NCBI GenBank assembly: GCA_964504985.1
Contig: CAZDFU010000005.1
Span: 1-46,417 of the forward strand
DNA: 46,417 nt
Direction: 5' to 3'
Source of the DNA: an uncultured Gammaproteobacteria bacterium
GTDB lineage: Bacteria; Patescibacteriota; Microgenomatia; Daviesbacterales; UBA10151
A program made the translations under genes and the position numbers. The notes beneath the pieces are model-generated. The model was not told the origin of the DNA, did no database searches, and was given only the letters and a program-made list of their open reading frames with translations. Every line of letters begins with the position of its first letter. Within the stretch, counting starts at the first letter, position 1. Shown in pieces: positions 11,603-46,417 of this stretch.

Positions 11603-12790
11603 ATGAAACGGGTGGTTGTTGTTCTTCCAACTTATAATGAAAAAGATAACTTAGAAAAAACCGTAAGAAGTGTTTTTGAACAGCAGAAATCCTTGCCAAG
11701 CCATGAGATTAATATTGTAATCACTGATGATATCAGAAGCTCAGATGGTACAGATAAAGTGGCTCAGGTATTAGCCAAGGGAAATAAAAAAGTGCACTTT
11801 TTAAAGGTCCAACCTGGCTTGGGGGTAGGGTTAATTGAGGGACATAGGTATTCCTTAAAACATCTTCAACCAGATATCCTGGCTCAACTTGATGCTGATG
11901 GACAGGTTGGAGCAGATGTATTAGTTAGGTTAGTAAATACAATAGAGGAAGGGTATGATTTGGCCATTGGATCAAGGTTTGTGTCAGGGGGGAAAAACCA
12001 ACTTTCTTTTTCAAGGAGGCTTTTTAGTGCCGGAGCATCATATATTTGCCGTATGATTATGGGGCCTCATGATATCGCTGAGTTTACAAACTCAGCCAGG
12101 GCTTTTACACCAGAGCTTTTTAAAAGAATTAATTTAAATAGATTGCCTTGGAGGGAAAAAACATTTATAGTCCAGCCCGCATTTTTAAACGAGGCAATAT
12201 TGGCTCATGCAAAATATAAGGAAGTTCCGCTAACTTTCAAAAATAGACTTGAAGGGTATTCAAAGAACAAAGTTTTTAATTATACATATGATGTTATTAC
12301 TTATTGTATTGATGCCAGACTGAGAAAATTTGGTTTAAATATACCATTTTTTGTTCTGACAAGAAGGGCAAAGACAATTGTAAAATTTGGACTGGTGGGA
12401 TTTATTGGCACTTTAGTAGACTTTCTTTTTTATAAAATCTTTATTAATGCATTAGGTGTTCCACCAGCTACTTCAAAGGGAATTTCAACTGAGATTGCCA
12501 TAATGAATAACTTTTTTTTAAATAATTTTTGGACATTTAAATACCGTAAAACTAAAACTAATATTTGGCAAAAGCTGGGAATTTTCAACCTGGTCAGTTT
12601 AGGAGGATTAGTCATAGGTGTTTTGATTGTTAAGTTTCTGCATTCAACTTATGGTGATGGATTTGTGGATTTAGGATTTAGGAAATTGGCTTATAATAAC
12701 TTTTACTTTTTTGCAACAATCCCTCCTGTTATGATTTGGAACTTTATAATAAACCATCTTATTACTTGGCGTAATCAAGAAGAATCCTAA
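11603..12790 (+). CDS. GT2 polyprenol-phosphate glycosyltransferase (DPM-synthase-like) fused to a GtrA-like flippase
   Basis: VVLPTYNEKDN, DADGQ, AIGSRF, EVPLTF; C-terminal KFGLVGFIGTLVDF...NFFLNNFWTFK...WNFIINHLITW is a GtrA pattern. Likely start ATG 11603. Confidence 0.88.
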   Translation: MKRVVVVLPTYNEKDNLEKTVRSVFEQQKSLPSHEINIVITDDIRSSDGTDKVAQVLAKGNKKVHFLKVQPGLGVGLIEGHRYSLKHLQPDILAQLDADGQVGADVLVRLVNTIEEGYDLAIGSRFVSGGKNQLSFSRRLFSAGASYICRMIMGPHDIAEFTNSARAFTPELFKRINLNRLPWREKTFIVQPAFLNEAILAHAKYKEVPLTFKNRLEGYSKNKVFNYTYDVITYCIDARLRKFGLNIPFFVLTRRAKTIVKFGLVGFIGTLVDFLFYKIFINALGVPPATSKGISTEIAIMNNFFLNNFWTFKYRKTKTNIWQKLGIFNLVSLGGLVIGVLIVKFLHSTYGDGFVDLGFRKLAYNNFYFFATIPPVMIWNFIINHLITWRNQEES

Positions 12791-12793
12791 GAC

Positions 12794-14161
12794 ATGAGAA
12801 GAAAGCTGGAGTTAATTTTTCTTCTCACCTTAATTTTAACGGCAATTTTTTTCAGAGCATATAATTTGGAAAAAAGGCTTCCATTTGCTTGGGATCAGGA
12901 ACGGGATGCTGAGATGGCTTGGCAGATTATCAAGACAGGGAAGCCTACGCTAATTGGCCCGCGGGTTATAAGCGATGACGCGTTTTACCTGGGCCCTTTA
13001 TGGTACTATTTAATTACTCCTTTTTATTTTCTTTTTGGAATGGACCCAATTGCAGCCGGTGTGTTGATGATTTTACTGGGAGTTTTAACCAGCTTAACAG
13101 TTTATTTTGTTACAAAACATCTATTAGGTATCAGAGAGGCTATTACAGTAAGCCTAATTTGGGTCAGTTTGGGTGACATTGTTGCCTGGAATCCAGTATT
13201 AATACCTTTTGCTACTGCATTGTTGTTATTCTTTCTTGTCAAAATTGTTGATGGAGAATATAAATTTATCCCGTTTTCTCTGCTTTTGATAGGTCTTGCT
13301 ATGCAATTGCACTTTCAGGCAGTATTTTTTTTAATACCATTTATTTTGGCAATATTTTTTTGTATTAAAAAATTTAACAAATTTCCATTCAAAAGTTTAT
13401 CAATAGGAACAGCTCTTTTTCTGTTAACTTTTTTGCCAATAATAATTTTTGACCTCAGGCATGAATTCTTAAATGCTAAAGGAGTACTAAAATTATTTTT
13501 TAACTCAAATGAAAATTCTAATCCTCATTTCATTTCCAGGTTTGTTCTATTATGGGAGAAATTTTTACAAACATGTGTGTTCTTTATCCCCAGAATTTAT
13601 GAGATAAACACTAAGCTCATAGTAGGGTCTATTGTGTTTTTATTTTCAGTAAGAGGAATATTAGTAAGCAAACTGTCTGACCAAAAGAAGAATTTAATAT
13701 TGTCTATAATACTTTTCCCCCCGCTTCTTTACCCGCTTTATAAAGGTGAAATTTCAGAATATTATTTCAGCTTGGTATCAGTTCCTCTGCTGATAGGGTT
13801 TTCTAATGGTTTGTTTAAGATAAGGTTATTTAACCTAAACTATTTCCTAATTTTTTCTATTATGCTCTGGGTGTTTATTGGCAGATTAAGTTTAATTTTA
13901 ACTAAAGAAGATAACCAAAGTTTGTATTATAAAAAGGAGGCAGTGAAATATATTGTTAACCAAAAAATTGACCCAATTTTTAATGTTTCCTATTCTGTTC
14001 CCCTAAATTCAGATGTAGGTTTTAAATATCTTTTCAGGTTTTATGGAAGAGAGCCTCAAAATATTCCAGCAGGACATCTTTGGACAATAGTGATACCTCC
14101 AGATGGTGAGAATGTACCTCCTTTGGTTTCATCCGGCGGGGTAGGGGTTATTAGAAGGTAG
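12794..14161 (+). CDS. GT-C fold (ArnT/PMT-like) membrane glycosyltransferase
   Basis: Polytopic; WDQERDA in the first loop, YLGPLWYYL, WNP, QLH. Confidence 0.75.
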   Translation: MRRKLELIFLLTLILTAIFFRAYNLEKRLPFAWDQERDAEMAWQIIKTGKPTLIGPRVISDDAFYLGPLWYYLITPFYFLFGMDPIAAGVLMILLGVLTSLTVYFVTKHLLGIREAITVSLIWVSLGDIVAWNPVLIPFATALLLFFLVKIVDGEYKFIPFSLLLIGLAMQLHFQAVFFLIPFILAIFFCIKKFNKFPFKSLSIGTALFLLTFLPIIIFDLRHEFLNAKGVLKLFFNSNENSNPHFISRFVLLWEKFLQTCVFFIPRIYEINTKLIVGSIVFLFSVRGILVSKLSDQKKNLILSIILFPPLLYPLYKGEISEYYFSLVSVPLLIGFSNGLFKIRLFNLNYFLIFSIMLWVFIGRLSLILTKEDNQSLYYKKEAVKYIVNQKIDPIFNVSYSVPLNSDVGFKYLFRFYGREPQNIPAGHLWTIVIPPDGENVPPLVSSGGVGVIRR

Positions 14162-14163: not shown

Positions 14164-15318
14164 TTAGTTAAAAAGGTAAGTATTTGGAATTGGAGCAACG
14201 TTTGTAAGGATGAAGTTTTGTGAATATAAATAAATTGCAATAAATATTATTGGTAAGATTATTTTAAACTCTTTACTGGTAAGTACCCTTTCAAATGCAA
14301 TCAGTATTAAAGGGGTTACAGGTAATATATACCTTGAGATGTCCCGGTGTGCTATCAATGTAGATGCAAAAAGGTAAGTTAGAACAAAAAAGGATAAAGT
14401 ATACAACCTTTTCTTCCATAGGATTATTCCTCCCAAAAACCCAAGAGTGAAAATATAAATTAAGTCTTCAAGCCAAATATCACCAACCCAAAACTGTGCT
14501 TTGTTAAAGACTTGAAAAGGAGGGAGGGTTAAGTGGATATTATCCCCGCTATGAAAATATGCAAAAAAATCCTGGTATGTTATTGAATACCAGAAAAAAA
14601 TCAACAAAAGAGTTAAGGGTATGGTTAGTAAAGGAAGGTATGCGCTTATAGCTTTGGAAATAGGGATTTGTTTGGTGATAATTCTCCAAAACAAATAAGC
14701 AGATAAGGCAACAAAAAGTAAAATCCCGGGAGGTCTGGTAAGTTGGGCAAATATTCCTGCAAAGGCAACATAAATTAAGTTCAAACTGTTCCCTGATTGC
14801 TCAAATTTCATAAAAAAATATATGGCAGTCAAGATAAATAGTATGAATGTTGGTTCAGAGGAGCCGACACTGTGAACAATGAGCCATCTGGCTGGTAAGA
14901 TTAGGAATATCAGGCTTAAAAAAAGAGGACTGTTGGTTAATTTAAAGTTTTTAACCAAAAGGTAAAAGACCCAGGTTGCTAATATAGTAGATAATAAGGA
15001 AACAAACAACATTGATTTCAAGTAACCCAGAAGCGGGGCAAAAAAATAAATTAGTATAGAATACCCGGGAAAATGGGAAGCAAAGTAACTAGCTGGCAGG
15101 CTTTGGGGTAGAAGGGAAATAAGTTGAGAGTTATAGAATGTTTTGGCTATAATAATATACTCCAATCCATCAAAGTTCCTATAAATTAGGGGAAATCCTT
15201 CTTTGAAGGATAGCCCCCAAAAGTTAGGCAGTGCTAACAGGTGCGGGAGCCAGACAGCTAGAGTAATGACAATGACAAAGACGCTTATTAACGATAGATC
15301 CTTAAGGTTTCTGTTCAC
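14164..15318 (-). CDS. GT-C fold mannosyltransferase-like (PIG-V type) membrane protein
   Basis: Polytopic; FDGLEYIIIA, HFPGY, SEPTF, TRPPG, RYILP. GTG start. Confidence 0.72.
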   Translation of the reverse strand: MNRNLKDLSLISVFVIVITLAVWLPHLLALPNFWGLSFKEGFPLIYRNFDGLEYIIIAKTFYNSQLISLLPQSLPASYFASHFPGYSILIYFFAPLLGYLKSMLFVSLLSTILATWVFYLLVKNFKLTNSPLFLSLIFLILPARWLIVHSVGSSEPTFILFILTAIYFFMKFEQSGNSLNLIYVAFAGIFAQLTRPPGILLFVALSAYLFWRIITKQIPISKAISAYLPLLTIPLTLLLIFFWYSITYQDFFAYFHSGDNIHLTLPPFQVFNKAQFWVGDIWLEDLIYIFTLGFLGGIILWKKRLYTLSFFVLTYLFASTLIAHRDISRYILPVTPLILIAFERVLTSKEFKIILPIIFIAIYLYSQNFILTNVAPIPNTYLFN

Positions 15319-15325
15319 AAATTTA

Positions 15326-15343
15326 ATTATATAACAGTATAAT
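15326..15343. promoter_or_regulatory. Back-to-back -10 boxes for two divergent leaderless genes
   Basis: Plus strand TATAAT (15338-15343), 6 nt, ATG 15350. Minus strand TATAAT (15331-15326), 7 nt, GTG 15318. Confidence 0.65.
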
Positions 15344-15349: not shown

Positions 15350-17530
15350 ATGACTAAGAATTTGTCAGTCTTTTTTCCTTGTTTTAATGAAGAAGGCAGT
15401 ATAGAAATAACTGTAAACAGGGCAGCTAAAGTTTTAGGGGAGTTAAAAATAAATTACGAGATAATCATAGTAAATGATGGTTCCTCAGATAAAACAGCCA
15501 AGGCAGCAGATAAATTAATTAAACAAAATTCCAAAGTCAGGGTTATTCACCACAAAAAAAATTTAGGGTATGGTGAAGCATTAAAGTCAGGGTTTTATAA
15601 CTCCCGCTATGATGTAATTGTGTATGCGGATGGTGACGGACAATTTGATTTTTCAGAGATTACCAAATTTTTGGAAAAAATAGAGGAAGATGATTTAATA
15701 ATTGGTTACCGTATCAAAAGGAAAGACCCTTTTTTTAGAATATTATTTAAGCAAGGCTGGAAAATATCTCTTTGGATAATGTTTGGATTAACCCTTAAAG
15801 ATGTAGACTGCGGATTTAAAATGGTCAGGAAAAAAGTTTTGGAAAATATCCCTCACCTGCAGTCTCAAAGAGGCGCGATGATTAATGCAGAGCTTGCTAT
15901 AAAAGCAAAAAAATTTGGATTTAAAACAGGAGAGGTGGGTGTTAATCATTATCCCAGGTTGTCTGGTAAGCCAACAGGAGCAAATATAAAAGTAATCCTG
16001 GCTTCCTACCTGGATCTTTTAAAACTTTGGTGGAGATTAAAAGACAGTAAGATTCTATTCTTAAGTTTAGCAGCTATAATTTTAATGGCTTTTTTCCTGA
16101 GGACTTATAGATTATCAGAATACATGACTTTTTTGGGGGATGAAGGCCGTGATGCGATTATTATAAAAAAATTCTTAACAGAAGGTAATATGCCCTTTAT
16201 TGGTCCGCCCACATCTGTTGGGAATGTTTACCTTGGTCCCCTTTACTACTACATGATAACTATCCCCATGGCTATTTTTTGGTTGAATCCTGTAGCAGCT
16301 GCAGGGATGAATACTTTGATTGGAGTGGCAACAATAACCCTGATTTATTATTTAGGCAAAATCTGGTTTGGCAGGGTACCTGCTTTAATTGCAGCTTTTC
16401 TGTATACTATCTCGCCTGTTACAATTATTTATTCACGTTCATCCTGGAATCCAAATCCAACACCTTTTTTTTCTTTGATTGGAATATGGGCTTGTTATAA
16501 AGCATACCAGAGTAAAAACTTCCTCTGGTATGCTTTGGTAGGATTATCAGCATCTGCTGCATTACAAATGCATTATTTAGCTTTGCTTTTAATTCCAACA
16601 TTTATTCTAATCTGGTTTTATCAATTAAGGAGCAATCAAAATAAAAATGTGAAATTGGGGAGTGCAGGGGGTATTGTTACTTTTTTTGTGATGATGTTTC
16701 CTTTAATACTGTTTGAGTTTAAACATAATTTCTTAAACCTTAATGCCTTAAAAGATCTTTTGTTTGGAAGCAGTGCTGTTGGCTTTAACTTTTTGGAAGT
16801 ATTAGCAAGACTTCCTGATATTTATTTCAATAAAATGATTGGACGCTATTTTAACGGTGAAGTTTGGGTATTTAGTGTAATTTTAGGGTTATTAATACTT
16901 ATTCCGGTTATTAAGCTCATAAGAGATAAACTTGCTCAAAGAAGAATTGATTGGCCTCTATTTTCAATTACAGTCTGGCTGCTAATTGGTATTGTAGGGC
17001 TGTCATTTTATCAGGGAAGCATTTATGATCATTACTTTGGATTTATGAATCCGGCACCGTATTTACTTTTAGCAGCTTCATTTAATTTAATTTCCTCCCT
17101 TTTGGGTAAAAAATCTTTTAGAGTTATAAGTTGGATAGCAGTTGGTTTATTGTTAATTATTTTGACTTTTGTAAATTTTCAAAAAAACCCTTTGCAAAAC
17201 CCGCCAAATAATTTATTAAAAAGAACTCAGGATATAGCAAAATTCATTATTGATAAGACAGAGAATAAACCTTTTAATTTTGCATTACTGGCTGAGAATA
17301 ATTATGATGATGCTTACAAATTCTATCTTGATTTATACAACCATAAGCCGGAAGAGTTGCCGTTTAATAAAACTGATCAGTTGTTTGTGGTTTGTGAAGA
17401 CCAAGATTGTGATCCAATTTACAGCTCAAAACATGAGATTGCAGCATTTGGATGGGTGATAGTAGAGAAAAAGTGGAATGTTGAAGGCTTGAGGGTATTT
17501 AAATTGGTGCATAATCCCAAACAGCAATGA
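15350..17530 (+). CDS. Bifunctional GT2 (polyprenol-P-sugar synthase-like) plus GT-C glycosyltransferase fusion
   Basis: N-terminal FPCFNEE, NDGS, DGDGQF, DVDCGFK; C-terminal polytopic domain with FLGDEGRDA, YLGPLYYY, SWNPN, QMH. Confidence 0.85.
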   Translation: MTKNLSVFFPCFNEEGSIEITVNRAAKVLGELKINYEIIIVNDGSSDKTAKAADKLIKQNSKVRVIHHKKNLGYGEALKSGFYNSRYDVIVYADGDGQFDFSEITKFLEKIEEDDLIIGYRIKRKDPFFRILFKQGWKISLWIMFGLTLKDVDCGFKMVRKKVLENIPHLQSQRGAMINAELAIKAKKFGFKTGEVGVNHYPRLSGKPTGANIKVILASYLDLLKLWWRLKDSKILFLSLAAIILMAFFLRTYRLSEYMTFLGDEGRDAIIIKKFLTEGNMPFIGPPTSVGNVYLGPLYYYMITIPMAIFWLNPVAAAGMNTLIGVATITLIYYLGKIWFGRVPALIAAFLYTISPVTIIYSRSSWNPNPTPFFSLIGIWACYKAYQSKNFLWYALVGLSASAALQMHYLALLLIPTFILIWFYQLRSNQNKNVKLGSAGGIVTFFVMMFPLILFEFKHNFLNLNALKDLLFGSSAVGFNFLEVLARLPDIYFNKMIGRYFNGEVWVFSVILGLLILIPVIKLIRDKLAQRRIDWPLFSITVWLLIGIVGLSFYQGSIYDHYFGFMNPAPYLLLAASFNLISSLLGKKSFRVISWIAVGLLLIILTFVNFQKNPLQNPPNNLLKRTQDIAKFIIDKTENKPFNFALLAENNYDDAYKFYLDLYNHKPEELPFNKTDQLFVVCEDQDCDPIYSSKHEIAAFGWVIVEKKWNVEGLRVFKLVHNPKQQ

Positions 17531-18264
17531 AGAAATTATCTGTAGTTATACCGGCATATAATGAGGCTAGGAATTTAAAAAAAGGAGTCCTGCAGGAGGT
17601 AAGTAATTTCTTAAAGACTACGGGGTTAAACTATGAAGTGATAATTGTGGATGATGGATCAATAGATGATACAAAACAGATAATTGAAAACTTCATTATA
17701 AAAAACCCTTTATTTAAATTAATTAAAGTATCCCATGGCGGAAAAGCTAATGCTGTTATGACAGGATTATTAAAAGCACAGGGTGAAATAATTCTTTTTA
17801 CTGATATGGATCAGGCAACCCCAATAAATCAGCTGGAAAAATTTATCCCGCTTTTTGAGGATGGTTTTGATATTGTCATTGGTTCAAGAGCTGGAAGAAA
17901 AGGCGCGCCCATAATTAGAAAATTATCTGCCTGGGGATTTTCAGTTTTAAGAGGTATTATTTTAGGGCTTCCTTTTGCAGATACTCAATGTGGTTTTAAG
18001 GCTTTTACTAAAAAGGTTGTTGAAAGGATCATTCCTAAAATAAAGAATGAGTGGGGAGTAGTTCATTTTAAAGGCGGGGCAGTTAATGCAGGGTTTGATG
18101 TGGAACTACTTTATCTAGCTAAAAAATATGGTTTTAAAATAGCAGAGGTTTCTGTTGAGTGGAGTTATGTTGACACTGAAAGAGTACAGGTTGTTAAAGA
18201 TGCAGCAGCTGCCATCTATGATATGTTTAGAATCAGAATAAATGATTTAAAAAGAAAGTATTAG
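17527..18264 (+). CDS. GT2 dolichyl/polyprenol-phosphate glycosyltransferase (Alg5/DPM-like)
   Basis: VVIPAYNEA, DDGS, HGGKANAV, FTDMDQATP, IGSR, DTQCGFK, FDVELL. Confidence 0.88.
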   Translation: MKKLSVVIPAYNEARNLKKGVLQEVSNFLKTTGLNYEVIIVDDGSIDDTKQIIENFIIKNPLFKLIKVSHGGKANAVMTGLLKAQGEIILFTDMDQATPINQLEKFIPLFEDGFDIVIGSRAGRKGAPIIRKLSAWGFSVLRGIILGLPFADTQCGFKAFTKKVVERIIPKIKNEWGVVHFKGGAVNAGFDVELLYLAKKYGFKIAEVSVEWSYVDTERVQVVKDAAAAIYDMFRIRINDLKRKY

Positions 18265-18282
18265 TATGCTAGAATTATGGAT

Positions 18283-18816: not shown

Positions 18817-18838
18817 TTTTTTGGTAAGTATTCACCTT

Positions 18839-18930: not shown

Positions 18931-18956
18931 ACTCTAAATAGATACATTTTTTGGGC

Positions 18957-18986: not shown

Positions 18987-18992
18987 AAGATA

Positions 18993-39123: not shown

Positions 39124-39930
39124 ATGTTAAGTGTAATAGTTCTTACGAAAAATGAGCAAGAAAGAATTGAGGCTTGTTTAGAATCAGTGAAGTGGGCCAA
39201 TGAAATAATAATTTCTGACAATGGCTCAGTAGATAATACAGTAGATATTGCAAAAAAATATACTGATAAAATTTTTAAAGTTAATTTTGACAATTTTGCA
39301 GATTGGCGTAATCATGCTATAGAAAAAGCAACAGGTGAGTGGGTGCTTTTTATTGATCCAGATGAGAGGGTTTTAAAACCATTAAAAAATGAGATAGAAG
39401 TTATGGTTACCTTTTCTGATTTTTCAGCTTATGCGCTTTCACGGAAGAATATCATCTTTGGCAGTAAAGTAAAATACGGCTCTTTTTGGCCTGATTGGGT
39501 AATTAGACTTCTTAAAAAAAGTGATTTTGAAGGTTGGGTAGGTAAAGTTCATGAATACCCTAAGTTTAAAGGAGGTTTAGGTTATAGCAAAAATTCTCTG
39601 CTGCATTTAACTCACAGGGATTTAGACCAGATTGTGTTAAAAAGTCTTGAATGGTCAAAAATAGATGCCAAATTAAGATTTGAGGCTAATCATCCAAAGA
39701 TGAGCGGACTCCGTTTTTTGAGGATTTTTCTAACTGAAATATTTAACCAGGGAATTTTAAGAAGGGGATTTTTTAACGGGTCAATAGGTATTATGGATTC
39801 ACTGCTGCAGGCGTTTAGTATGTATATGAGCTATGTAAGGCTTTGGGAAATGCAGCAACCAAAGCACCTAAAAGAGGTTTATAGGGAAATTGATAAAAAT
39901 TTGATAAAAAATGGATTTCTTGACGAATGA
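39124..39930 (+). CDS. GT2 glycosyltransferase (paralog of the previous gene)
   Basis: SVIVLTKNE, ISDNGSVD, RNHA, FIDPDE, WPDWVIRL, VHE, LLHLTH. Confidence 0.88.
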   Translation: MLSVIVLTKNEQERIEACLESVKWANEIIISDNGSVDNTVDIAKKYTDKIFKVNFDNFADWRNHAIEKATGEWVLFIDPDERVLKPLKNEIEVMVTFSDFSAYALSRKNIIFGSKVKYGSFWPDWVIRLLKKSDFEGWVGKVHEYPKFKGGLGYSKNSLLHLTHRDLDQIVLKSLEWSKIDAKLRFEANHPKMSGLRFLRIFLTEIFNQGILRRGFFNGSIGIMDSLLQAFSMYMSYVRLWEMQQPKHLKEVYREIDKNLIKNGFLDE

Positions 39931-40997
39931 AAATTGCCATTTATAGTCCTTATTTAGATACTGCTGGCGGGGGAGAAAAGTATGTTTTGACCATCGCTGA
40001 GATTTTATCTAAAAACCACCAGGTTTATCTATTATTGGACTCCCATTTAAAAAAAATTGGCATTGAAGATATCAAGAGAAAAATTATAAATCTTCACAAT
40101 CTTGATTTATCTAAAGTGGATTTTCTAGAAGCTCCGTTTGGAAAAGGCAACTCTTTTTTTAAAAGGCTTTTTTACTTACGGCGTTTTGACGTATTATTCT
40201 TTTTAACGGATGGAAGTATTTGTTACCCCACAGCTAAAAAGAATATACTGCATATACAATCGCCTTTAATAGGCGAGCCCGCTAACGGATTCTGGGGTAA
40301 AACAAAGTTAAGGGCATGGGATCTGATAATCTATAACTCCAAATTTACCCAAGATAATTCCCGGAAAAATTGGCCTATTAAATCACAAGTAATTTATCCG
40401 CCAATTGAAGTAGAGAAAATAAAGCCCTTAAAAAAGAAAAATTATATTTTATCTGTAGGAAGATTTTTTGGATATTTAAAGGATAAAAAACACGGGCTAT
40501 TAATTAAAACATTTAAAAGTCTTTACGGGAATAAAAAGACAGATGGTTGGAGTCTTCATTTAGCCGGGTCTGCAAGCGATGGAGATAAAGAGTATCTTCT
40601 GGAACTTAGAGAGTTAGCAAAGGGATTGCCTGTAAAGTTTTACCCAAACTTAAGTTATGATAATCTAATCAGATTATACGGAGAATCCAGCATCTATTGG
40701 CATGCCTCAGGATTTGGGGAAAGTGAACCGGTAAAAATGGAGCATTTTGGGATAGCTGCAGTTGAAGCCATGGCAGGGGGTTGTATTCCGGTTGTAATTA
40801 AGAAAGGCGGATTAATTGAGATAGTTGAGGATGGAAAGTCTGGTTTTCTCTGGGAGACTAAAGAGGATTTGATGGATTTTTCTATAAATTTAATAACAGA
40901 TGAAAAATTAAGAAGGGAAATCAGCAGAGAAGCTATAAAAAGGTCAGAAATTTTTAATAAAAGGATATTTGAACAAGCTATACTTAAATTAATCTGA
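39927..40997 (+). CDS. GT4 glycosyltransferase (GT-B fold)
   Basis: GGGEKY, NSKFT, IYPP, SVGRF...KKH, EHFGIAAVEAMAGG (EX7E). Confidence 0.92.
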   Translation: MKIAIYSPYLDTAGGGEKYVLTIAEILSKNHQVYLLLDSHLKKIGIEDIKRKIINLHNLDLSKVDFLEAPFGKGNSFFKRLFYLRRFDVLFFLTDGSICYPTAKKNILHIQSPLIGEPANGFWGKTKLRAWDLIIYNSKFTQDNSRKNWPIKSQVIYPPIEVEKIKPLKKKNYILSVGRFFGYLKDKKHGLLIKTFKSLYGNKKTDGWSLHLAGSASDGDKEYLLELRELAKGLPVKFYPNLSYDNLIRLYGESSIYWHASGFGESEPVKMEHFGIAAVEAMAGGCIPVVIKKGGLIEIVEDGKSGFLWETKEDLMDFSINLITDEKLRREISREAIKRSEIFNKRIFEQAILKLI

Positions 40998-42501: not shown

Positions 42502-43238
42502 TGAAAAGTTTAAAAGTATTAATTGTTATGCCTGCATATAATGCGGAAAAGACTGTAGTTGATACTTTTAGTGAAATCCCCTCAGAATACCGCCAAAATA
42601 TAATACTTGTTGATGATCAAAGTAAGGATAAAACAGTTGAAGTTGCAAAGGAACTGGGGATCAAAGTTTTTACCCATACTAACAATTTAGGATACGGAGG
42701 AAATCAAAAAACATGCTATATAGAAGCATTAAAATCAAATGTTGATATTGTAATCATGTTACACCCGGATTATCAATATGATGCAACATTAATTGGGGAG
42801 CTTATTAGACCAATAATACAGAATAGATTTGATTTTATGTTCGGCTCAAGAATTCAAACAAAAGAGCACGCCCTTAAAGGGGGGATGCCTAAACTTAAGT
42901 ATTATGTTAACCGTGTGACATGTTTGATTGAAAATATACTGCTAGGGGTAAATTTTACAGAACATTTTTCAGGTTTTAGGGCATATTCTGTAAAAGTACT
43001 CCAAACCGTGCCTTTTCAAAAATTTTCTAATGATTTTGTTTTTGACCAACAAATGGTAATTTCTTCATTAAGTTTTGGGTTTAGGATAGGTGAAATAGCC
43101 ATACCCACCAGGTATCATGATAAGGCTTCATCCATACAATTTATAAAAGGGGTAAAATTTATTTTGCAAACTTTTTGGACAATATTATTATTCCGGTCGC
43201 ATAAACTAGGATTTATAAAAAGTAAACTTTTTAGATAA
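42501..43238 (+). CDS. GT2 DPM-synthase-like glycosyltransferase
   Basis: VMPAYNAEK, VDDQS, NLGYGGNQK, HPDYQY, FGSR, SGFRAY, FDQQ, EIAIPTRY. Confidence 0.88.
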   Translation: MKSLKVLIVMPAYNAEKTVVDTFSEIPSEYRQNIILVDDQSKDKTVEVAKELGIKVFTHTNNLGYGGNQKTCYIEALKSNVDIVIMLHPDYQYDATLIGELIRPIIQNRFDFMFGSRIQTKEHALKGGMPKLKYYVNRVTCLIENILLGVNFTEHFSGFRAYSVKVLQTVPFQKFSNDFVFDQQMVISSLSFGFRIGEIAIPTRYHDKASSIQFIKGVKFILQTFWTILLFRSHKLGFIKSKLFR

Positions 43239-44879
43239 TCTCTTAAAATTAATAAATGAAGATAATAATATTATAAAGCCGGTTAAGGTTAAAATTTTAG
43301 ATACACGGGTTATTAATGTATCTTCAAATCTGATGATTATGTTGTGACGGCCTTTAGGAACATTAAAACTGATTAAACCATTTTTATCAACTTTAAGCTG
43401 ATTGAGTTCGTTGTCTATATATAGACTTTGCCCTGGGAAATAAAATTGTCCAGCAGACACAGAAGCTTCTTTTTTTGAATTAATAGTAAATGACAAAAAG
43501 TTAGTTGCCTGTTTTTTATCAGAAAAAGTTATACCCTCTCCGTAAGCCTCATTCCATACTTTTCCTAATAACTTATCGTTTGCTCCTATTGGAAGATACT
43601 CATTAAAGGTATTAGTTGTTACCTCTGTTTCCAGGTTCAAGTATGTCTCAATAGGGAAATCAGTGTATTGATTTACATTTAGATGGTTCCTGTTGGTATA
43701 TAAAGCTACAAGTATTAAAAATATAAGAATCAAAATTTTAAGTTTCTTGCTAAAATGAACAAGTATTAAACCTGCACAAATTGAGGCAATAAGAAGCGCA
43801 GGTAATAATAACCTAAAGGGAAAATCAACTGTGACAATATTTACTAATACCTCCCATACAGTTGTTGAGTAATCTAAGGTCAAAAAAATACTGACAGCTA
43901 AGCCTGATAATAAAAAAACGCCTAAAGCATGGTTCTTTTTTGACAAACGCCTAAAAATGATTAGTAAAACTAAGATGATAACTGAAATCCATTGTGAAAC
44001 ACCTAGTTGAAATGAAACCTCTCCGTTCTTCGCATTATTTACAATAGGACTATAGCCCCATTTGGAATAAACAAGTTGGTTTAGGTCAATAAAGTTTCTT
44101 TTGTAGAGTTCTTTTAAACCGGTTTGACCGTTAACTCTAGTAAAGCGGTTGTAGTAAGCTGCAGGTAATAGATAAAAGGATGCTAATAAGACCCCTAGTA
44201 ATACCCCTAAGGTGATATTTTTTAAATAAATCATTCTTTTTTCAGCATATATAAATTCCCAGAGGAAAAGGGTAAAAATAAGGGGAAATAGGAAAATAAG
44301 ATGCATAATATGCGAAAGAATTATGCCCAAGATCCCTAGGGATAGAATTATTATGCCAAATCTTGAACGCTCTCTTATTAAGTGAATGCCTAATAGAACA
44401 AGGGGAACGAAGGTGAATATGAAAGCAATCCCCATCGAGGCGCTGACAAAGATGATAAGAAAATGGTAAGGTACCCAAAGATACAATATTGAAGATAATA
44501 GTGCTGATAATTTATCTTTAAGCAGGCTTCTGGCAAAAAAATACATGCTAATGCCTGATCCTAAGTATGACAGAAAGAATAATGCTTTTATGGTTTCTGA
44601 AAAATTTAATCCTAATTTCATAAGCGCTACTCCAATAATCCAAGGAAAGTGGTAAGAGAAGAATAATAGGGGATAACCAAAATTGTGTGCAAGTTGACCT
44701 ATCCAATAAGGTGGTATCTGACCATCATTTACAGCCAGATGATAGTAATAAAGCCTGACAACTTGATGCCAGATATCATGGGCAGTGAATAATCCTGGAT
44801 GCAACAATGCCTTCATTCCCAAAATGGAAAATGTTAGGATAATAATTAAGAAAATTAAATCTTTGGGAATTTTCCTCAT
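43206..44879 (-). CDS. GT-C membrane protein, PTPS-related/YfhO-like family, dispersed inverted copy 5
   Basis: HDIWH, FGYPL, SH, DFPFRL, EYLP, YFPG, YfhO-like C-terminus. Confidence 0.75.
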   Translation of the reverse strand: MRKIPKDLIFLIIILTFSILGMKALLHPGLFTAHDIWHQVVRLYYYHLAVNDGQIPPYWIGQLAHNFGYPLLFFSYHFPWIIGVALMKLGLNFSETIKALFFLSYLGSGISMYFFARSLLKDKLSALLSSILYLWVPYHFLIIFVSASMGIAFIFTFVPLVLLGIHLIRERSRFGIIILSLGILGIILSHIMHLIFLFPLIFTLFLWEFIYAEKRMIYLKNITLGVLLGVLLASFYLLPAAYYNRFTRVNGQTGLKELYKRNFIDLNQLVYSKWGYSPIVNNAKNGEVSFQLGVSQWISVIILVLLIIFRRLSKKNHALGVFLLSGLAVSIFLTLDYSTTVWEVLVNIVTVDFPFRLLLPALLIASICAGLILVHFSKKLKILILIFLILVALYTNRNHLNVNQYTDFPIETYLNLETEVTTNTFNEYLPIGANDKLLGKVWNEAYGEGITFSDKKQATNFLSFTINSKKEASVSAGQFYFPGQSLYIDNELNQLKVDKNGLISFNVPKGRHNIIIRFEDTLITRVSKILTLTGFIILLSSFINFKRLSKKFTFYKS

Positions 44880-44937
44880 CTATTGTTAATAATATAGCTT
44901 TTCTAATGCTAAATTGCTAACATTAATTTGTAATTAA

Positions 44938-46417
44938 ATGAGAAAATTAACATACTTTTTACTGGTTATTGTTATACTGCTTGGTTTTTTCTTAAGGTTT
45001 AACAAGGTTACCGAGATCCCCCCTTCATTAAATTGGGATGAAATCTCAATTTCTTATAATGCATATTCTGTTTTAAAAACAGGGAAAGATGAGTGGGGAA
45101 AATTTCTTCCAATTCATTTCAAATCATACGGAGAATATAAACTCCCTGCTCAAGTTTACTTATCTATTCCGGCCATCTCAATATTTGGATTAAATGAGTT
45201 TGGAGTTAGAATTACTCCTGTAATTTATGGAACTTTGACGGTTATCGTGATGTTTTTTTTAGGAAGGGCACTTTTCCAAAGTAATCTAGCAGGGCTAGCA
45301 TCATCATTTCTTACAGCTGTATCAGTTTGGCATATCCAGTTAACTAGAGCCTCCTTTGAGTCCTCGTTGGCAACTTTTTGGATAGTATCAGGAGTTTGGT
45401 TTTTAGTTAAAGGGTTTAAAGATCAAAAGTGGTTTATTATCTCAATGATACCGTTTGCTCTTTCAGTTTTTACTTATAATTCAGCGCGGATATTTGCACC
45501 AATCTTTCTGCTTGTAGTACTTATTATTTATAGAAAACATCTTGCAAAGTATAAAAAAATAGTTTTATGGTCATTTCTCGTTTTTATAATTTTATTGATC
45601 CCATTAGCACCGTTTATATTAAGCGGAGAAAGAAGTTCTAGGTATAAATTGGTAAGCATTACAGATGACCCGGGTTTAATTTTAAGAATAAATGAAAATA
45701 GAGGATTATCAAAACTGCCTGCGCCATTACCACGCTTAATTCACAATAAAGTTACCTATGTAAGTTATTATTTTGCCAGAAATTACTCTGCTCACTTTTC
45801 TCCAAATTTTCTATTTATTTCTGGCGCACCTCATAAGCAGCACCATGTTCAAAATATGGGGCAATTATATTATTTTCAACTGCCTTTGTTTATAGCTGGT
45901 CTTATTGGTTTATTTTTCTTAAAACATAAATTTAAAGGGATTCTTTTATCTTGGGTTCTTCTTGCGTATATTCCGGTCTCTGTTACAAACGATAGTATTC
46001 CTCATGCTCTAAGGACCCTTATTGCAATGCCATTTTATCAACTTGTTTCAGCATTAGGATTTATTGTTTCAATTAATTGGCTCAAAAGATTACCAAAAAT
46101 TACGGTTATTATTTTAGCGGTAGGGTTTTTCATTTTAATGGTTTTCAATTTTAATTCTTATGTAAAAAATTATTATGACATTTATCCAAAGACTTATTCA
46201 AAAGACTGGCAATATGGATATAAACAAGTGGTAGGCTATATTAATAAGAATAAGGATAAATATGACCAGATTGTTTTTTCAAGACATTATGGTGAGCCGC
46301 ATATGTTTACTCTTTTCTATTTAAACTATGAACCTGCAAAATATCAGAATGATCCAACTTTAGTTAGATTTGAAACTTATGATTGGGTAAGAGTTTTGAA
46401 ATTTGATAAATATTATT
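44938..46417 (+). CDS. GT-C fold (ArnT/PMT-like) glycosyltransferase, 3'-truncated by the window edge
   Basis: Not in the ORF track. My translation: MRKLTYFLLVIVILLGFFLRFNKVTEIPPSLNWDEISISYNAYSVLKTGKDEWG...EYKLP...; the same frame reads ...DWVRVLKFDKYY at the window end. Confidence 0.85.
   Translation, partial: MRKLTYFLLVIVILLGFFLRFNKVTEIPPSLNWDEISISYNAYSVLKTGKDEWGKFLPIHFKSYGEYKLPAQVYLSIPAISIFGLNEFGVRITPVIYGTLTVIVMFFLGRALFQSNLAGLASSFLTAVSVWHIQLTRASFESSLATFWIVSGVWFLVKGFKDQKWFIISMIPFALSVFTYNSARIFAPIFLLVVLIIYRKHLAKYKKIVLWSFLVFIILLIPLAPFILSGERSSRYKLVSITDDPGLILRINENRGLSKLPAPLPRLIHNKVTYVSYYFARNYSAHFSPNFLFISGAPHKQHHVQNMGQLYYFQLPLFIAGLIGLFFLKHKFKGILLSWVLLAYIPVSVTNDSIPHALRTLIAMPFYQLVSALGFIVSINWLKRLPKITVIILAVGFFILMVFNFNSYVKNYYDIYPKTYSKDWQYGYKQVVGYINKNKDKYDQIVFSRHYGEPHMFTLFYLNYEPAKYQNDPTLVRFETYDWVRVLKFDKYY

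What the first reader, a model, noticed from the sequence alone, without database searches (positions are those of the whole stretch)
11603..46417. 35-kb locus with about 16 GT-C enzymes: an ER-like lipid-donor glycan assembly line
Seen: GT-C-like genes or domains at 12794, 14164, 15350(C), 18993, 20505, 22225, 23864, 25489, 28142(C), 31655, 33685, 35402, 36556, 40999, 43206 and 44938, in at least four subfamilies. They come with four polyprenol-P-sugar synthase-like GT2 domains, only three conventional cytoplasmic GTs, GtrA and Wzx. From 18993 to 43238 no gap exceeds 39 nt. Established: GT-C enzymes use lipid-phosphate sugars outside the cytoplasm (ArnT, PMT, PIG-V, mycobacterial arabinosyl/mannosyltransferases), whereas ordinary O-antigen or capsule loci are dominated by cytoplasmic GTs. 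Inference: a small Wzx-flipped core is elaborated stepwise outside the membrane, or many surface proteins/pili are glycosylated. This is a large investment for a presumably reduced epibiont genome and, to my knowledge, an uncharacterised pathway. The locus continues past the window.
Basis: partly seen in the sequence, partly recalled or inferred. Interest (0 to 1): 0.72.

Follow-up and report, generated by a model that had tools for sequence, protein, structure and literature searches.

The report
Giant membrane glycosyltransferase cluster, Microgenomates bacterium
A tiny-genome groundwater bacterium (Daviesbacteria-like, Candidate Phyla Radiation) packs 16 membrane-embedded sugar-transferring enzymes plus the enzymes that load sugars onto lipid carriers into one 35-kb operon-like cluster that its relatives also keep, so it very probably builds or decorates its surface glycan mostly outside the cell membrane.

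Summary
All 16 listed ORFs or domains are polytopic membrane proteins with GT-C evidence. Eight pass Pfam PMT_2 or PTPS_related thresholds. Six are tied in by sub-threshold hits, paralogy or profile comparison. The two with no sequence-level hit (28142 C-terminal part, 31655) are GT-C by structure: an AF2 model of 31655 (pLDDT 87.8) has 18 top PDB matches that are all GT-C enzymes.

The accessory genes are as described: four ArnC/DPMS-like GT2 domains, three ordinary GTs and one MOP/Wzx flippase. "GtrA" exists only as a domain fused to a GT2. The 39-nt maximum gap is correct.

Caveats: 25489 and 35402 lack the acidic loop-1 motif and may be inactive, and 14164c is the weakest call.

The host is a Microgenomates/Daviesbacteria CPR bacterium. 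The cluster is syntenic in dozens of relatives, with orthologues at 50-79% identity against 25-36% between paralogues. In relatives it runs at least 10 kb further.

The closest known systems are the multi-component extracytoplasmic glycosylation systems (Gtr, CsbB/YfhO, Gac, lactococcal Wps) and the mycobacterial GT-C battery. The acceptor, glycopolymer or protein, is unresolved.

Verdict: a real, conserved, unusually large variant of a known kind, containing one GT-C family with no existing model.

The parts
7003..8085 (+). RmlA (long form), glucose-1-phosphate thymidylyltransferase
   Evidence: NCBIfam TIGR01208, 351 bits, above the 320 cut-off; Pfam NTP_transferase
8067..9089 (+). RmlB, dTDP-glucose 4,6-dehydratase
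   Evidence: NCBIfam TIGR01181, 428 bits, above the 365 cut-off
9049..9630 (+). RmlC, dTDP-4-dehydrorhamnose 3,5-epimerase
   Evidence: Pfam dTDP_sugar_isom, 150 bits
9630..10520 (+). RmlD, dTDP-4-dehydrorhamnose reductase
   Evidence: Pfam RmlD_sub_bind, 216 bits
10540..11553 (+). GDP-mannose 4,6-dehydratase-like SDR enzyme
   Evidence: Pfam GDP_Man_Dehyd, 331 bits; NCBIfam gmd, 318 bits, below the 415 cut-off
11537..12790 (+). GT2 polyprenyl-phosphate sugar synthase-like domain fused to a GtrA/DPMS-type 4-TM domain
   Evidence: Pfam Glycos_transf_2 (residues 28-162) and GtrA_DPMS_TM (283-411, 75.5 bits); best NCBIfam hits PgfS, ArnC, AglJ, PpgS
12794..14161 (+). GT-C (PMT_2), group C; WDQERD motif after TM1
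   Evidence: Pfam PMT_2, 28 bits, above GA; 24% identical to 15350C, E 2e-28; motif
14164..15318 (-). Probable GT-C, about 380-aa family, invariant Asp50 after TM1; the weakest of the 16 calls
   Evidence: PMT_2, 22.5 bits, below GA
15350..17530 (+). Fusion protein: cytoplasmic GT2 (ArnC/PgfS-like, residues 1-225) plus GT-C (PMT_2, from TM1 at about 230; GDEGRD motif)
   Evidence: Pfam GT2, 103.7 bits, and PMT_2, 46.9 bits; NCBIfam; motif
17527..18264 (+). Soluble GT2, polyprenyl-phosphate sugar synthase-like
   Evidence: Pfam GT2, 105.6 bits; best NCBIfam hits PgfS, ArnC, Dol-P-hexose transferase
18277..18816 (+). 179-aa protein made of three Top1-type zinc-ribbon repeats; role in the locus unknown; not seen in related loci
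   Evidence: Pfam sub-threshold zinc-ribbon hits; sequence; absent matches
18993..20498 (+). GT-C (PMT_2), singleton; ADE motif
   Evidence: Pfam PMT_2, 52.5 bits; motif
20505..22244 (+). GT-C group A (PTPS_related/YfhO-like); QDD motif
   Evidence: PTPS_related, 22.3 bits, below GA; 36% identical to 22201, E 1e-103
22201..23892 (+). GT-C group A; HDD motif
   Evidence: PTPS_related, 58.2 bits; PMT_2, 24.8 bits
23858..25540 (+). GT-C group A; SDD motif; no Pfam hit of its own
   Evidence: 29% identical to 22201, E 7e-65; motif
25489..26652 (+). Shortened group A paralogue (387 aa against about 570) with DD replaced by QN; probably catalytically inactive
   Evidence: PMT_2, 30.8 bits; alignment with orthologues
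26655..28142 (+). MOP/Wzx-family flippase
   Evidence: Pfam Polysacc_synt_3, 168.8 bits; NCBIfam MOP flippase, 143 bits
28142..31651 (+). 1169-aa protein: signal anchor, extracytoplasmic DUF3863/NodB-like (glycoside hydrolase/deacetylase fold) domain (about residues 24-470), then a family E GT-C core (about 485-1169; HDGVWH motif)
   Evidence: AF2 model of the N-domain, pLDDT 90.7; Foldseek 3lm3, E 4e-16, then CE4 deacetylases and ArnD; profile hit to 3lm3; C-terminal part 28.5% identical to 31655
31655..33688 (+). Family E GT-C (no Pfam or NCBIfam model); invariant HDG motif (D136)
   Evidence: AF2 pLDDT 87.8; Foldseek top 18 hits all GT-C; conservation
33685..35424 (+). GT-C group B (PMT_2/PMT); GDE motif
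   Evidence: PMT_2, 50 bits; motif
35402..36559 (+). 385-aa group-B-related membrane protein lacking the canonical loop-1 acidic motif; conserved as its own family
   Evidence: hhalign 97%, E 6e-11, against group B, starting at residue 57; no invariant N-terminal acidic residue
36556..38190 (+). GT-C group B; GDE motif
   Evidence: PMT and PMT_2 about 20 bits, below GA; 35% identical to 44938, E 1e-86
38230..39120 (+). Ordinary cytoplasmic GT2
   Evidence: Pfam GT2, 70.6 bits; NCBIfam best hits SunS/mftF-like
39124..39930 (+). Ordinary cytoplasmic GT2, paralogue of 38230
   Evidence: Pfam; 33% identical to 38230
39927..40997 (+). Cytoplasmic GT4 (GT-B fold)
   Evidence: Pfam Glycos_transf_1, 93.3 bits
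40999..42501 (+). GT-C (PMT_2 and PMT, both above GA); LDE motif
   Evidence: PMT_2, 52.9 bits; PMT, 30.2 bits
42501..43238 (+). Soluble GT2, polyprenyl-phosphate sugar synthase-like
   Evidence: Pfam GT2, 72 bits; best NCBIfam hits AglJ, PpgS, Dol-P-hexose transferase
43206..44879 (-). GT-C group A-like (PTPS_related/YfhO); AHD motif
   Evidence: Sub-GA PTPS_related, 24.1 bits, and YfhO; 26-28% identical to group A, E 1e-33 to 1e-38
44938..46417 (+). GT-C group B, cut by the end of the window; WDE motif
   Evidence: PMT_2, 41.2 bits; PMT, 32 bits

Best explanation
This is a conserved surface-glycan locus of a Microgenomates (Daviesbacteria-like) CPR bacterium. It works as an enlarged multi-component extracytoplasmic glycosylation system.

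Proposed sequence of steps:
1. Nucleotide sugars are made next door. RmlABCD gives dTDP-L-rhamnose, and a Gmd-like enzyme gives a GDP-6-deoxyhexose.
2. Four ArnC/DPMS-like GT2 domains load single sugars onto polyprenyl phosphate at the inner face of the membrane.
3. One lipid-linked sugar is probably extended by the GT2-GT2-GT4 trio to a short lipid-linked oligosaccharide.
4. The MOP/Wzx flippase, and possibly the GtrA-like domain of 11537, move the lipid-linked sugars across the membrane.
5. About 14 catalytically competent GT-C enzymes of at least four old subfamilies each add a sugar or oligosaccharide to a growing acceptor outside the membrane.
6. The two family E GT-Cs next to the flippase are the best candidates for handling the flipped oligosaccharide, by polymerising it or ligating it, as lactococcal WpsI/WpsJ do. 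One of them carries a NodB/DUF3863-like glycan-processing domain.

The most likely acceptor is a rhamnose-containing wall or membrane glycopolymer rather than proteins.

Shown here: the fold and family assignments, gene order, conservation, and the catalytic motifs. Inferred: donor identity, flipping, order of action, and acceptor.
For: - GT-C identity of all 16.
- An acidic motif directly after TM1 in 12 GT-Cs. Family E (31655 and the 28142 C-terminal part) has a conserved HDG(L/V)WH motif instead; it lies after several N-terminal helices and is only a candidate catalytic motif.
- GT2 domains 11537N, 15350N, 17527 and 42501 form one BLAST group. Their best matches are polyprenyl-phosphate sugar synthases (ArnC, PgfS, AglJ, Dol-P-hexose transferase, PpgS). 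38230 and 39124 form a separate group.
- 15350 fuses such a GT2 to a GT-C with coherent topology: the GT2 is on the inside, and the DE motif comes after TM1.
- A complete Rml pathway lies directly upstream on the same strand.
- The order Wzx - 28142 - 31655 is kept in nearly all related loci.
- The N-domain of 28142 has a glycoside hydrolase/deacetylase fold (3lm3, E 4e-16; CE4 deacetylases; ArnD), which fits a glycan or lipid-sugar substrate.
- Orthologues are 50-79% identical and syntenic, while paralogues are 25-36% identical. The copies are therefore old and individually retained, which fits distinct linkages.
- No phosphoglycosyltransferase, Wzy or Wzz is in the window. This matches the lactococcal Wps logic of a monophosphate-linked primer made by a GT2, a Wzx-family flippase, and a GT-C polymerase and GT-C ligase (PMC9574508).
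- Three-component systems with several GT-Cs have been noted before (PMC11127046).
Against: - No biochemical or expression data exist.
- All GT2 matches to polyprenyl-phosphate sugar synthase models are far below the equivalog cut-offs (45-80 bits against 300-530), so donor synthesis is inferred.
- 17527 and 42501 have no TM segment.
- No LCP-type ligase, ABC exporter, or identifiable acceptor gene is in the window.
- 40999 and 44938 pass the Pfam PMT gathering score, and the best structural neighbours of family E are protein-modifying enzymes (STT3, DPY19, AglB, PglB). Protein acceptors therefore remain possible.
- Two of the 16 lack the catalytic motif.
- The NodB-like domain lacks invariant His residues, so it is not a canonical CE4 deacetylase.
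- An initiating transferase could sit elsewhere in the genome.
Confidence: 0.6

Rival explanations
1. This is protein glycosylation machinery. The GT-Cs are PMT-, STT3- or DPY19-like enzymes. They O-, N- or C-glycosylate surface proteins (S-layer, pili, adhesins) and extend those glycans outside the membrane. Family E acts as an oligosaccharyltransferase for the Wzx-flipped oligosaccharide.
For: Pfam PMT (PF02366) is passed by 40999 and 44938 and nearly passed by 33685. The top Foldseek hits of 31655 are STT3, DPY19, AglB and PglB. The best NCBIfam hits of the GT2s include PgfS and AglJ, which belong to protein glycosylation systems.
Against: Family E has no WWDYG-type motif. Its only conserved WW is 'PWWF' in a loop before the last TM helices. 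It has no Pfam STT3 hit. TM-scores are only 0.42-0.48, and AftA, which acts on a polysaccharide, fits with the lowest rmsd. No candidate acceptor protein is encoded in the locus. The NodB/DUF3863-like domain and the adjacent rml genes fit a polysaccharide better.
Confidence: 0.25
2. The locus is a variation toolbox. Most GT-Cs are alternative decorators of one backbone, like the serotype-converting Gtr enzymes. They would be kept to vary the surface antigen or phage and host receptor, and they would not act in series.
For: GT-C number per 22-kb locus varies from 4 to 13 among relatives. Group B occurs in tandem runs of 3 to 6 copies. One paralogue (25489) is shortened and has lost its DD motif in the window's clade.
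Against: Most copies have one-to-one syntenic orthologues at 50-79% identity across Daviesbacteria. The group A trio is still 48-54% identical in a Woesebacteria locus. That indicates long-term retention of each copy, not rapid turnover. No phase-variation repeats or invertible elements were seen, although I did not search for them systematically.
Confidence: 0.12
3. Many of these proteins are not transferases. They would be GT-C-fold derivatives with other roles, such as lipid-linked sugar flipping (Agl23-like), scaffolding or transport, so the real number of enzymes is much smaller.
For: 35402 and 25489 lack the loop-1 acidic motif. 36556 weakly matches the Agl23 'flippase activity-associated' model at 40.5 bits against a cut-off of 126. 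Many assignments rest on weak similarity.
Against: Twelve proteins keep the loop-1 acidic motif in the expected position and the two family E members keep their own conserved HDG motif. Eight pass curated Pfam GT-C thresholds.
Confidence: 0.05

Closest known systems
Three- and four-component extracytoplasmic glycosylation systems: GtrA/GtrB/Gtr* of Shigella and Salmonella; CsbB/GtcA/YfhO for lipoteichoic acid; GacI/J/K/L of group A Streptococcus; Csd systems of Lactococcus (PMC9574508; PMC11127046)
   Same: Both have a GT2 polyprenyl-phosphate sugar synthase, a GtrA- or Wzx-family flippase, and a GT-C that transfers the sugar outside the membrane. rml genes lie adjacent, as in rhamnose cell-wall polysaccharide loci. 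The envelope context is monoderm.
   Different: Known systems have one GT-C per synthase and add side-chain decorations to a backbone made in the cytoplasm. This locus has 16 GT-C-like proteins for four synthase domains and only three cytoplasmic GTs. It has no rhamnan ABC exporter in the window, the GtrA-like part is fused to a synthase, and one synthase is fused to a GT-C.
Lactococcus lactis Wps pathway (WpsA/B primer, WpsC-F, Wzx-family WpsG, GT-C polymerase WpsI, GT-C ligase WpsJ) (PMC9574508)
   Same: Both combine cytoplasmic GTs, a Wzx-family flippase and GT-C enzymes acting on a lipid-linked oligosaccharide, with no classical phosphoglycosyltransferase or Wzy. In this window the equivalents are the 38230-39124-39927 trio, 26655, and 28142/31655.
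   Different: No sequence similarity to WpsI or WpsJ was tested or shown. No WpsH/Wzz-like co-polymerase was found. Family E is a separate family with no model, and one member carries a DUF3863/NodB-like domain.
Mycobacterial and corynebacterial envelope GT-C battery (EmbA-C, AftA-D, PimE, MptA-C) using decaprenyl-P-arabinose and polyprenyl-P-mannose
   Same: Many GT-Cs build a large glycan stepwise outside the membrane from lipid-monophosphate sugars. AftA is among the best structural matches of family E (TM 0.48-0.52).
   Different: The mycobacterial genes are spread over a 4-Mb genome and belong to other GT-C families (GT53, GT85, GT87, GT89). Here the genes sit in one tight cluster in a roughly 1-Mb genome, and there is no DPA pathway (no DprE or UbiA genes in the window).
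ER-lumenal ALG, PMT and PIG mannosyl- and glucosyltransferases using Dol-P-Man and Dol-P-Glc
   Same: The logic is the same: DPMS-type synthases, flipping, and serial GT-C transfers on the far side of the membrane. 11537 has the archaeal/eukaryote-like DPMS architecture of a GT2 plus a GtrA/DPMS TM domain.
   Different: This is an analogy only. There are no ALG-family Pfam hits in the window. PIG-V-, PIG-U- and PIG-M-like hits occur only in relatives downstream of the window.
ArnC/ArnD/ArnT lipid A modification pathway
   Same: Both have an ArnC-like GT2 (the best or second-best NCBIfam hit), a NodB-fold enzyme (ArnD is a Foldseek hit of the 28142 N-domain, E 3e-6), and a PMT_2-type GT-C.
   Different: The NodB-like domain here is extracytoplasmic, fused to the GT-C, and lacks conserved His ligands. 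There are no ArnA/ArnB genes and no lipid A in a monoderm CPR cell.

Membership tests
GT-C glycosyltransferase superfamily (all 16 candidates) | Polytopic membrane protein with about 8-13 TM helices | tested here: met
   7-16 Kyte-Doolittle segments in each candidate
GT-C glycosyltransferase superfamily (all 16 candidates) | Sequence or structural similarity to established GT-C families | tested here: met
   8 pass Pfam GA. 4 have sub-GA GT-C hits plus paralogy. 23858 is linked by paralogy and 35402 by hhalign (97%). 31655 is linked by AF2 and Foldseek, and 28142C by 28.5% identity to 31655. 14164c is weak, at about 70% hhalign probability.
GT-C glycosyltransferase superfamily (all 16 candidates) | Conserved acidic residue(s) in the first extracytoplasmic loop, after TM1 | tested here: inconclusive
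   Met in 12 of 16 (DE, DD, HD or D-G motifs right after TM1; D50 is invariant in the 14164c family). The two family E members keep an invariant HDG motif, but it lies after several extra N-terminal helices and is only a candidate equivalent. Not met in 25489 (QN) or in the 35402 family, which has no conserved N-terminal acidic residue.
GT-C glycosyltransferase superfamily (all 16 candidates) | Uses polyprenyl-phosphate-linked sugar donors | not testable with these tools
   Needs biochemistry
Three-component extracytoplasmic glycosylation system | GT2 that makes a polyprenyl-phosphate monosaccharide | tested here: inconclusive
   Four GT2 domains have best hits to ArnC, PgfS, AglJ, DPMS-type and PpgS models, but at 45-80 bits against cut-offs of 300-530.
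Three-component extracytoplasmic glycosylation system | Small GtrA-family flippase | tested here: inconclusive
   The GtrA_DPMS_TM domain (75.5 bits) is present only as the C-terminal part of 11537. There is no free-standing GtrA gene.
Three-component extracytoplasmic glycosylation system | GT-C transferase encoded with the synthase | tested here: met
   in 15350 the two are even fused in one polypeptide.
Wzx/Wzy-dependent polysaccharide pathway | Wzx (MOP) flippase | tested here: met
   26655: Polysacc_synt_3, 168.8 bits
Wzx/Wzy-dependent polysaccharide pathway | Initiating phosphoglycosyltransferase, Wzy polymerase and Wzz in the locus | tested here: not met
   No Bac_transf, MraY-like, Wzy_C or Wzz Pfam hit in any window ORF. 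The rest of the genome was not available.
STT3/PglB/AglB oligosaccharyltransferases (for family E: 28142C, 31655) | Overall fold similarity | tested here: met
   Top Foldseek hits, E 2e-7, TM 0.40-0.47
STT3/PglB/AglB oligosaccharyltransferases (for family E: 28142C, 31655) | WWDYG motif in the C-terminal extracytoplasmic domain, and a match to the STT3 sequence model | tested here: not met
   Only 'PWWF' at 370-373, and no WWD. No Pfam STT3 hit in 36 family members.
CE4/NodB polysaccharide deacetylases (for the 28142 N-domain) | NodB-type barrel fold | tested here: met
   Foldseek 3lm3, E 4e-16, TMt 0.67; CE4 enzymes at E 5e-7 to 1e-3
CE4/NodB polysaccharide deacetylases (for the 28142 N-domain) | Conserved Asp-His-His metal site | tested here: not met
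   No invariant or near-invariant His among 36 homologues. The domain is closer to DUF3863 (PF12979), whose function is unknown.

The most novel reading that the evidence does not exclude
Microgenomates may build their main surface glycan almost entirely outside the cytoplasmic membrane, through a dedicated assembly line of about 20 GT-C enzymes. That would be a bacterial counterpart of ER-lumenal or mycobacterial glycan synthesis. It would include a GT-C family with no existing model (family E), whose NodB/DUF3863-fused member acts as polymerase or ligase for a Wzx-flipped lipid-monophosphate oligosaccharide. The resulting glycan would be the key interface of these ultra-small cells with hosts and phages.
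Probability: 0.3. Interest if true: 0.75.

Novelty: new variant of a known kind. Interest (0 to 1): 0.6.

Why it matters
CPR bacteria have genomes of about 1 Mb and are thought to live attached to other cells, so their surface is central to their biology, yet its chemistry is unknown. This locus spends about 35 kb in the window, and probably 45 kb or more in total, on lipid-donor glycosyltransferases. Relatives have kept each copy since before Daviesbacteria species diverged. That points to a complex surface glycan under selection.

The locus gives concrete targets: four candidate lipid-sugar synthases, a synthase::GT-C fusion, and a GT-C family with no current model. It extends the three-component glycosylation paradigm from side-chain decoration toward possible whole-glycan assembly. 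It also improves annotation of hundreds of "hypothetical" Microgenomates membrane proteins.

Tried and rejected
- Sequence searches of 31655, 35402, 33685 and 40999 against PDB chains found nothing. The A1 profile against PDB gave only noise.
- hhalign of family E against the other window GT-C groups showed no link. Only structure prediction resolved family E.
- The exact-sequence look-up of the window's own 31655 product found no contig.
- Literature searches for GT-C, PMT or glycosyltransferase clusters in CPR, Patescibacteria, Microgenomates or Daviesbacteria found no description of such a locus. The library is partial, so this does not prove that none exists.
- The promoter and terminator scan of 11-20 kb showed no enrichment over shuffles. 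Operon structure therefore rests only on spacing and strand.
- Rfam and tRNA scans of the window were empty.
- Rejected: family E as an STT3-type oligosaccharyltransferase (no WWDYG, no STT3 model hit).
- Rejected: the 28142 N-domain as a canonical CE4 deacetylase (no conserved His).
- Rejected: a classical Wzx/Wzy O-antigen-type locus (no PGT, Wzy or Wzz in the window).
- Rejected: 25489 and 35402 as assembly artefacts or pseudogene fragments. Both are conserved as intact ORFs in several species.
- The "uncultured Gammaproteobacteria" titles of many matching MAG records were disregarded as placeholder labels. Their loci are syntenic with Daviesbacteria loci.

Full report

The window is about 34% GC. 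From 11.5 kb to its end it carries 24 ORFs, 22 of them on the + strand. Between 18993 and 43238 genes overlap or are separated by at most 39 nt, the largest gap being 38190 to 38230. The only larger gap in the locus is 176 nt, before 18993.

**2. Are they GT-C?**

- Pfam gives PMT_2 at or above the gathering score for 12794, 15350 (residues 297-446), 18993, 25489, 33685, 40999 and 44938, and PTPS_related for 22201.
- 40999 and 44938 also pass the PMT model.
- 20505, 36556, 43206c and 14164c have only sub-threshold GT-C hits.
- 23858, 28142, 31655 and 35402 have no Pfam or NCBIfam hit at all.

All-against-all BLASTP sorts the proteins into groups:

| Group | Members | Identity within group |
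|---|---|---|
| A | 20505, 22201, 23858, 43206c, and the short 25489 | 26-36% |
| B | 33685, 36556, 44938 | 28-35% |
| C | 12794, 15350 C-terminal part | 24% |
| E | 28142 residues 533-1168, 31655 | 28.5%, E 6e-68 |
| Singletons | 18993, 40999, 14164c, 35402 | - |

This rescues 23858, 20505, 36556 and 43206c by paralogy.

For 35402, a 40-sequence family alignment (A2) matches group B by hhalign with 97% probability and E 6e-11 over 300 columns. Four of its 40 members hit PMT_2.

For 14164c, an exhaustive representative search found 302 related clusters.
- The family has an invariant Asp50 in an N-x-D-G-P-x-Y motif just after TM1.
- Its members hit only GT-C Pfam families, and only weakly: PMT_2 in 5 of 40, GT87 in 2 of 40, plus DUF2079 and Mannosyl_trans4.
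- hhalign gives about 70% probability to groups A and B and to 40999, against 0.2% to the Wzx control.
- I call it a probable GT-C, the weakest of the set.

Family E could not be linked to anything by sequence. There was no hit in Pfam or NCBIfam, in PDB sequences, in Pfam scans of 36 homologues, or by hhalign to the other window groups. An AlphaFold2 model of 31655 built on a 36-sequence alignment is confident (pLDDT 87.8, pTM 0.90). Its 18 best Foldseek matches in the PDB are all GT-C enzymes: STT3 in OST complexes (E 2e-7), the C-mannosyltransferase DPY19, AglB, PglB, AftA (TM 0.48/0.52, the lowest rmsd) and ArnT. After those, probability collapses.

**3. Catalytic competence**

The acidic motif expected in the first outer loop right after TM1 is present in 12 proteins:

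| ORF | Motif after TM1 |
|---|---|
| 12794 | WDQERD |
| 15350C | GDEGRD |
| 18993 | ADE |
| 33685 | GDE |
| 36556 | GDE |
| 44938 | WDE |
| 40999 | LDE |
| 20505 | QDD |
| 22201 | HDD |
| 23858 | SDD |
| 43206c | AHD |
| 14164c | FDG |

Family E has an invariant HDG(L/V)WH instead (D136 in 31655). It lies after several extra N-terminal helices, so it is a candidate catalytic motif, not a canonical loop-1 motif.

Two proteins lack any such motif.
- 25489 is 387 aa with QN in place of DD. Its orthologues in more distant loci are about 570 aa and keep HHDD. The shortened, degenerate form is shared by the window's nearest relatives.
- The 35402 family aligns to group B only from residue 57 onward (equivalent to residue 99 of 33685). 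It has no conserved acidic residue in its N-terminal part.

Both are intact, conserved ORFs, so they may be retained pseudo-enzymes or accessory subunits.

**4. Accessory genes**

Directly upstream on the same strand lies a complete dTDP-L-rhamnose pathway: RmlA long form and RmlB, both above NCBIfam cut-offs, plus RmlC and RmlD. A GDP-mannose-4,6-dehydratase-like gene follows.

Four GT2 domains (11537 N-terminal part, 15350 N-terminal part, 17527, 42501) form one BLAST group. Their best NCBIfam matches are polyprenyl-phosphate sugar synthases: ArnC, PgfS, AglJ, dolichyl-phosphate hexose transferase and PpgS. All are far below the equivalog cut-offs. 38230 and 39124 form a separate GT2 pair with generic hits, and 39927 is a GT4. 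26655 is a MOP/Wzx flippase.

The "GtrA" is the C-terminal four-helix domain of 11537 (PF04138, 75.5 bits). From general knowledge, a GT2 followed by a GtrA/DPMS TM domain is the architecture of archaeal-type dolichyl-phosphate mannose synthase. There is no free-standing GtrA.

15350 is a fusion of such a synthase with a GT-C. The topology is coherent: the GT2 is inside, TM1 follows, and the DE motif lies outside.

No phosphoglycosyltransferase, Wzy, Wzz, LCP ligase or glycan ABC exporter is encoded in the window.

**5. The 1169-aa protein 28142**

Its first 23 residues are a signal anchor. Residues of about 24-470 have no Pfam hit, but many homologues carry PF12979 (DUF3863). A profile of the domain hits PDB 3lm3 at E 1.7e-5.

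An AF2 model (pLDDT 90.7) matches 3lm3, annotated "putative glycoside hydrolase/deacetylase", at E 4e-16 and TM 0.67. It then matches CE4 peptidoglycan and polysaccharide deacetylases and ArnD. No His is conserved, so it is not a canonical metal-dependent CE4 enzyme.

An extracytoplasmic glycan-processing-type domain fused to a GT-C, next to the flippase, argues mildly for a glycan or lipid-sugar substrate.

**6. Organism and conservation**

The closest homologues of 31655 (79% identity) and 35402 (68%) are genes G01um10147_68 and _66 of "Microgenomates group bacterium Gr01-1014_7". Next come many Candidatus Daviesbacteria MAGs. The window therefore comes from a CPR bacterium of the Microgenomates, close to Daviesbacteria.

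Gene order is the same in that genome and in a JGI groundwater contig. A scan of one genome per GTDB species with the family E profile found 35 loci. Most are titled Daviesbacteria, Microgenomates, Woesebacteria or Patescibacteria, or carry the placeholder title "uncultured Gammaproteobacteria". Single records are titled Clostridia and Omnitrophota.

Searching the ORFs of those loci with the window proteins shows 4-13 GT-C-like ORFs per 22 kb. The recurring order is: group A (two or three copies) - short A - Wzx - 28142 - 31655 - group B copies (with 35402) - GT2 - GT2 - GT4 - more PMT_2.

Orthologues are 50-79% identical and one-to-one. Window paralogues are 25-36% identical. The group A trio is still recognisable at 48-54% in a Woesebacteria locus. 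The duplications are therefore old and each copy has been kept, which argues for non-redundant functions. Group B copy number does vary between 3 and 6 tandem copies.

**7. Beyond the window**

A metagenome scan with 44938 gave 79 loci. In eight relatives, the homologue of 44938 is followed by these genes:
- two more group B GT-Cs
- a GT2 and a GT4
- a PIG-V-like GT-C (PF04188, 57.5 bits)
- a second MOP flippase
- another ArnC-like GT2 and another GT4
- an epimerase/dehydratase

Some relatives also carry a 378-aa PIG-U/PIG-M/GT87-like membrane protein after the GT4. The locus thus probably continues for at least 10 kb, with about 19-20 GT-C-like genes in total.

**8. Mechanism**

The best-supported reading is a greatly expanded multi-component extracytoplasmic glycosylation system.
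1. Nucleotide sugars are made by the adjacent Rml and Gmd-like enzymes.
2. Polyprenyl-phosphate sugars are made by the four ArnC/DPMS-like GT2 domains.
3. These are flipped across the membrane.
4. The sugars are transferred outside by the GT-Cs.

The GT2-GT2-GT4 trio, the MOP flippase and the two family E GT-Cs next to it mirror the lactococcal Wps logic. There, a GT2-made C55-P-GlcNAc primer is extended by cytoplasmic GTs, flipped by the Wzx-family WpsG, polymerised by the GT-C WpsI, and ligated to rhamnan by the GT-C WpsJ (PMC9574508). That logic also explains why no classical initiating transferase or Wzy is present here.

Shown here: the fold and family assignments, motifs, synteny and conservation. 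Inferred: donors, flipping, order of action and the acceptor.

I favour a rhamnose-containing glycopolymer as the acceptor, because of the rml genes, the NodB/DUF3863-like domain, and the absence of an acceptor protein gene. Protein glycosylation remains a serious rival, because PMT-model hits exist and STT3 and DPY19 are the top structural neighbours.

**9. Comparison with known systems, and novelty**

All components belong to known kinds. Several features differ from described systems:
- the ratio of parts: 16 or more GT-Cs to four synthase domains and three cytoplasmic GTs
- the tight single cluster in a genome of about 1 Mb
- its conservation across a CPR class
- the synthase::GT-C fusion
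- a GT-C family with no existing model, one member of which carries a DUF3863/NodB-like domain

Kelly et al. note only that "more elaborate systems containing multiple ... GT-Cs" exist and warrant investigation (PMC11127046). My literature searches found no description of this CPR locus. The library is partial.

I rate it a new variant of a known kind, with interest 0.6.

Noticed in passing
window 25489-26652 (+); L001/L004, L003, L006, L007 against L010, L011, L013, L014, L021, L025: The group A paralogue 25489 is shortened (387 aa against about 570), and its DD motif is replaced by QN. The same shortening, with ED, QE or YE in place of DD, is shared by the closest relatives. More distant Daviesbacteria keep a full-length HHDD version. 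It is either a retained pseudo-enzyme or slow gene decay.
   Followed up: partly
window 35402-36559 (+): A conserved family of about 386-aa proteins, related to group B GT-Cs but lacking TM1/loop 1 with its DE motif. It always sits between two group B genes and overlaps the upstream gene by 23 nt. It may be a non-catalytic partner subunit.
   Followed up: partly
window 15350-17530 (+); representatives P0417, P0427, P0457, P0485, P0491: A polyprenyl-phosphate sugar synthase-like GT2 is fused in one polypeptide to a GT-C, with coherent topology. Several 670-750-aa representatives of the 14164c family also carry their GT-C-like part at the C-terminus, which suggests similar fusions elsewhere.
   Followed up: partly
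window 18277-18816 (+): A 179-aa soluble protein made of three repeats of about 55 aa, each with a Top1-type CxxC...C zinc ribbon and a GW(D/N)K...GCDY(V/I)xW motif. It is wedged between a GT2 and the first GT-C of the long operon, and it is not found in the related loci examined.
   Followed up: no
proteins P0265-P0299: A widespread Daviesbacteria/Woesebacteria family of about 670 aa: signal anchor, DUF3863-like domain, two TM helices, and a small C-terminal domain. The C-terminal domain resembles that of family E, but the GT-C membrane core is absent.
   Followed up: partly
L052:2791-3924, 16605-17786, 17714-19081; L042:3112-3624: Downstream of the window's last gene, relatives encode a PIG-V-like GT-C, a PIG-U/PIG-M/GT87-like membrane protein and a second MOP flippase. 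One locus also has a DUF5667 protein next to an unannotated 431-aa polytopic protein.
   Followed up: partly
window 5224-5526 (+) and 5546-5932 (-): A 100-aa ORF matches only the N-terminal part of the TsaD/TsaB (Kae1/YeaZ) fold. Immediately after it, on the opposite strand, lies a gene for a '23S rRNA intervening sequence protein' (PF05635). This may be a truncated gene next to an inserted element.
   Followed up: no
window 5976-6845 (+): A CAP (cysteine-rich secretory protein) domain protein with an N-terminal and two C-terminal hydrophobic segments, just upstream of the sugar-nucleotide genes.
   Followed up: no
window 3259-3693 (+), 3885-5201 (+), 1904-2983 (-), 647-1321 (-): The upstream neighbours are a PIN-domain protein, a 438-aa ORF with no family match, a peptide chain release factor, and an ABC ATPase. 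None of these has an obvious link to the glycan locus.
   Followed up: no
L005, L006, L008-L010, L012, L013, L018, L025, L026, L028, L033, L035: Many MAG records titled 'uncultured Gammaproteobacteria bacterium' carry loci syntenic with the Daviesbacteria cluster. The titles look like placeholder or wrong taxonomy labels.
   Followed up: no
window 15314-15343 (+) and 15368-15339 (-): The 31-nt gap between the divergent genes 14164c and 15350 holds back-to-back sigma-70-like matches (11/12 and 10/12). Such matches are not enriched in the region overall.
   Followed up: no
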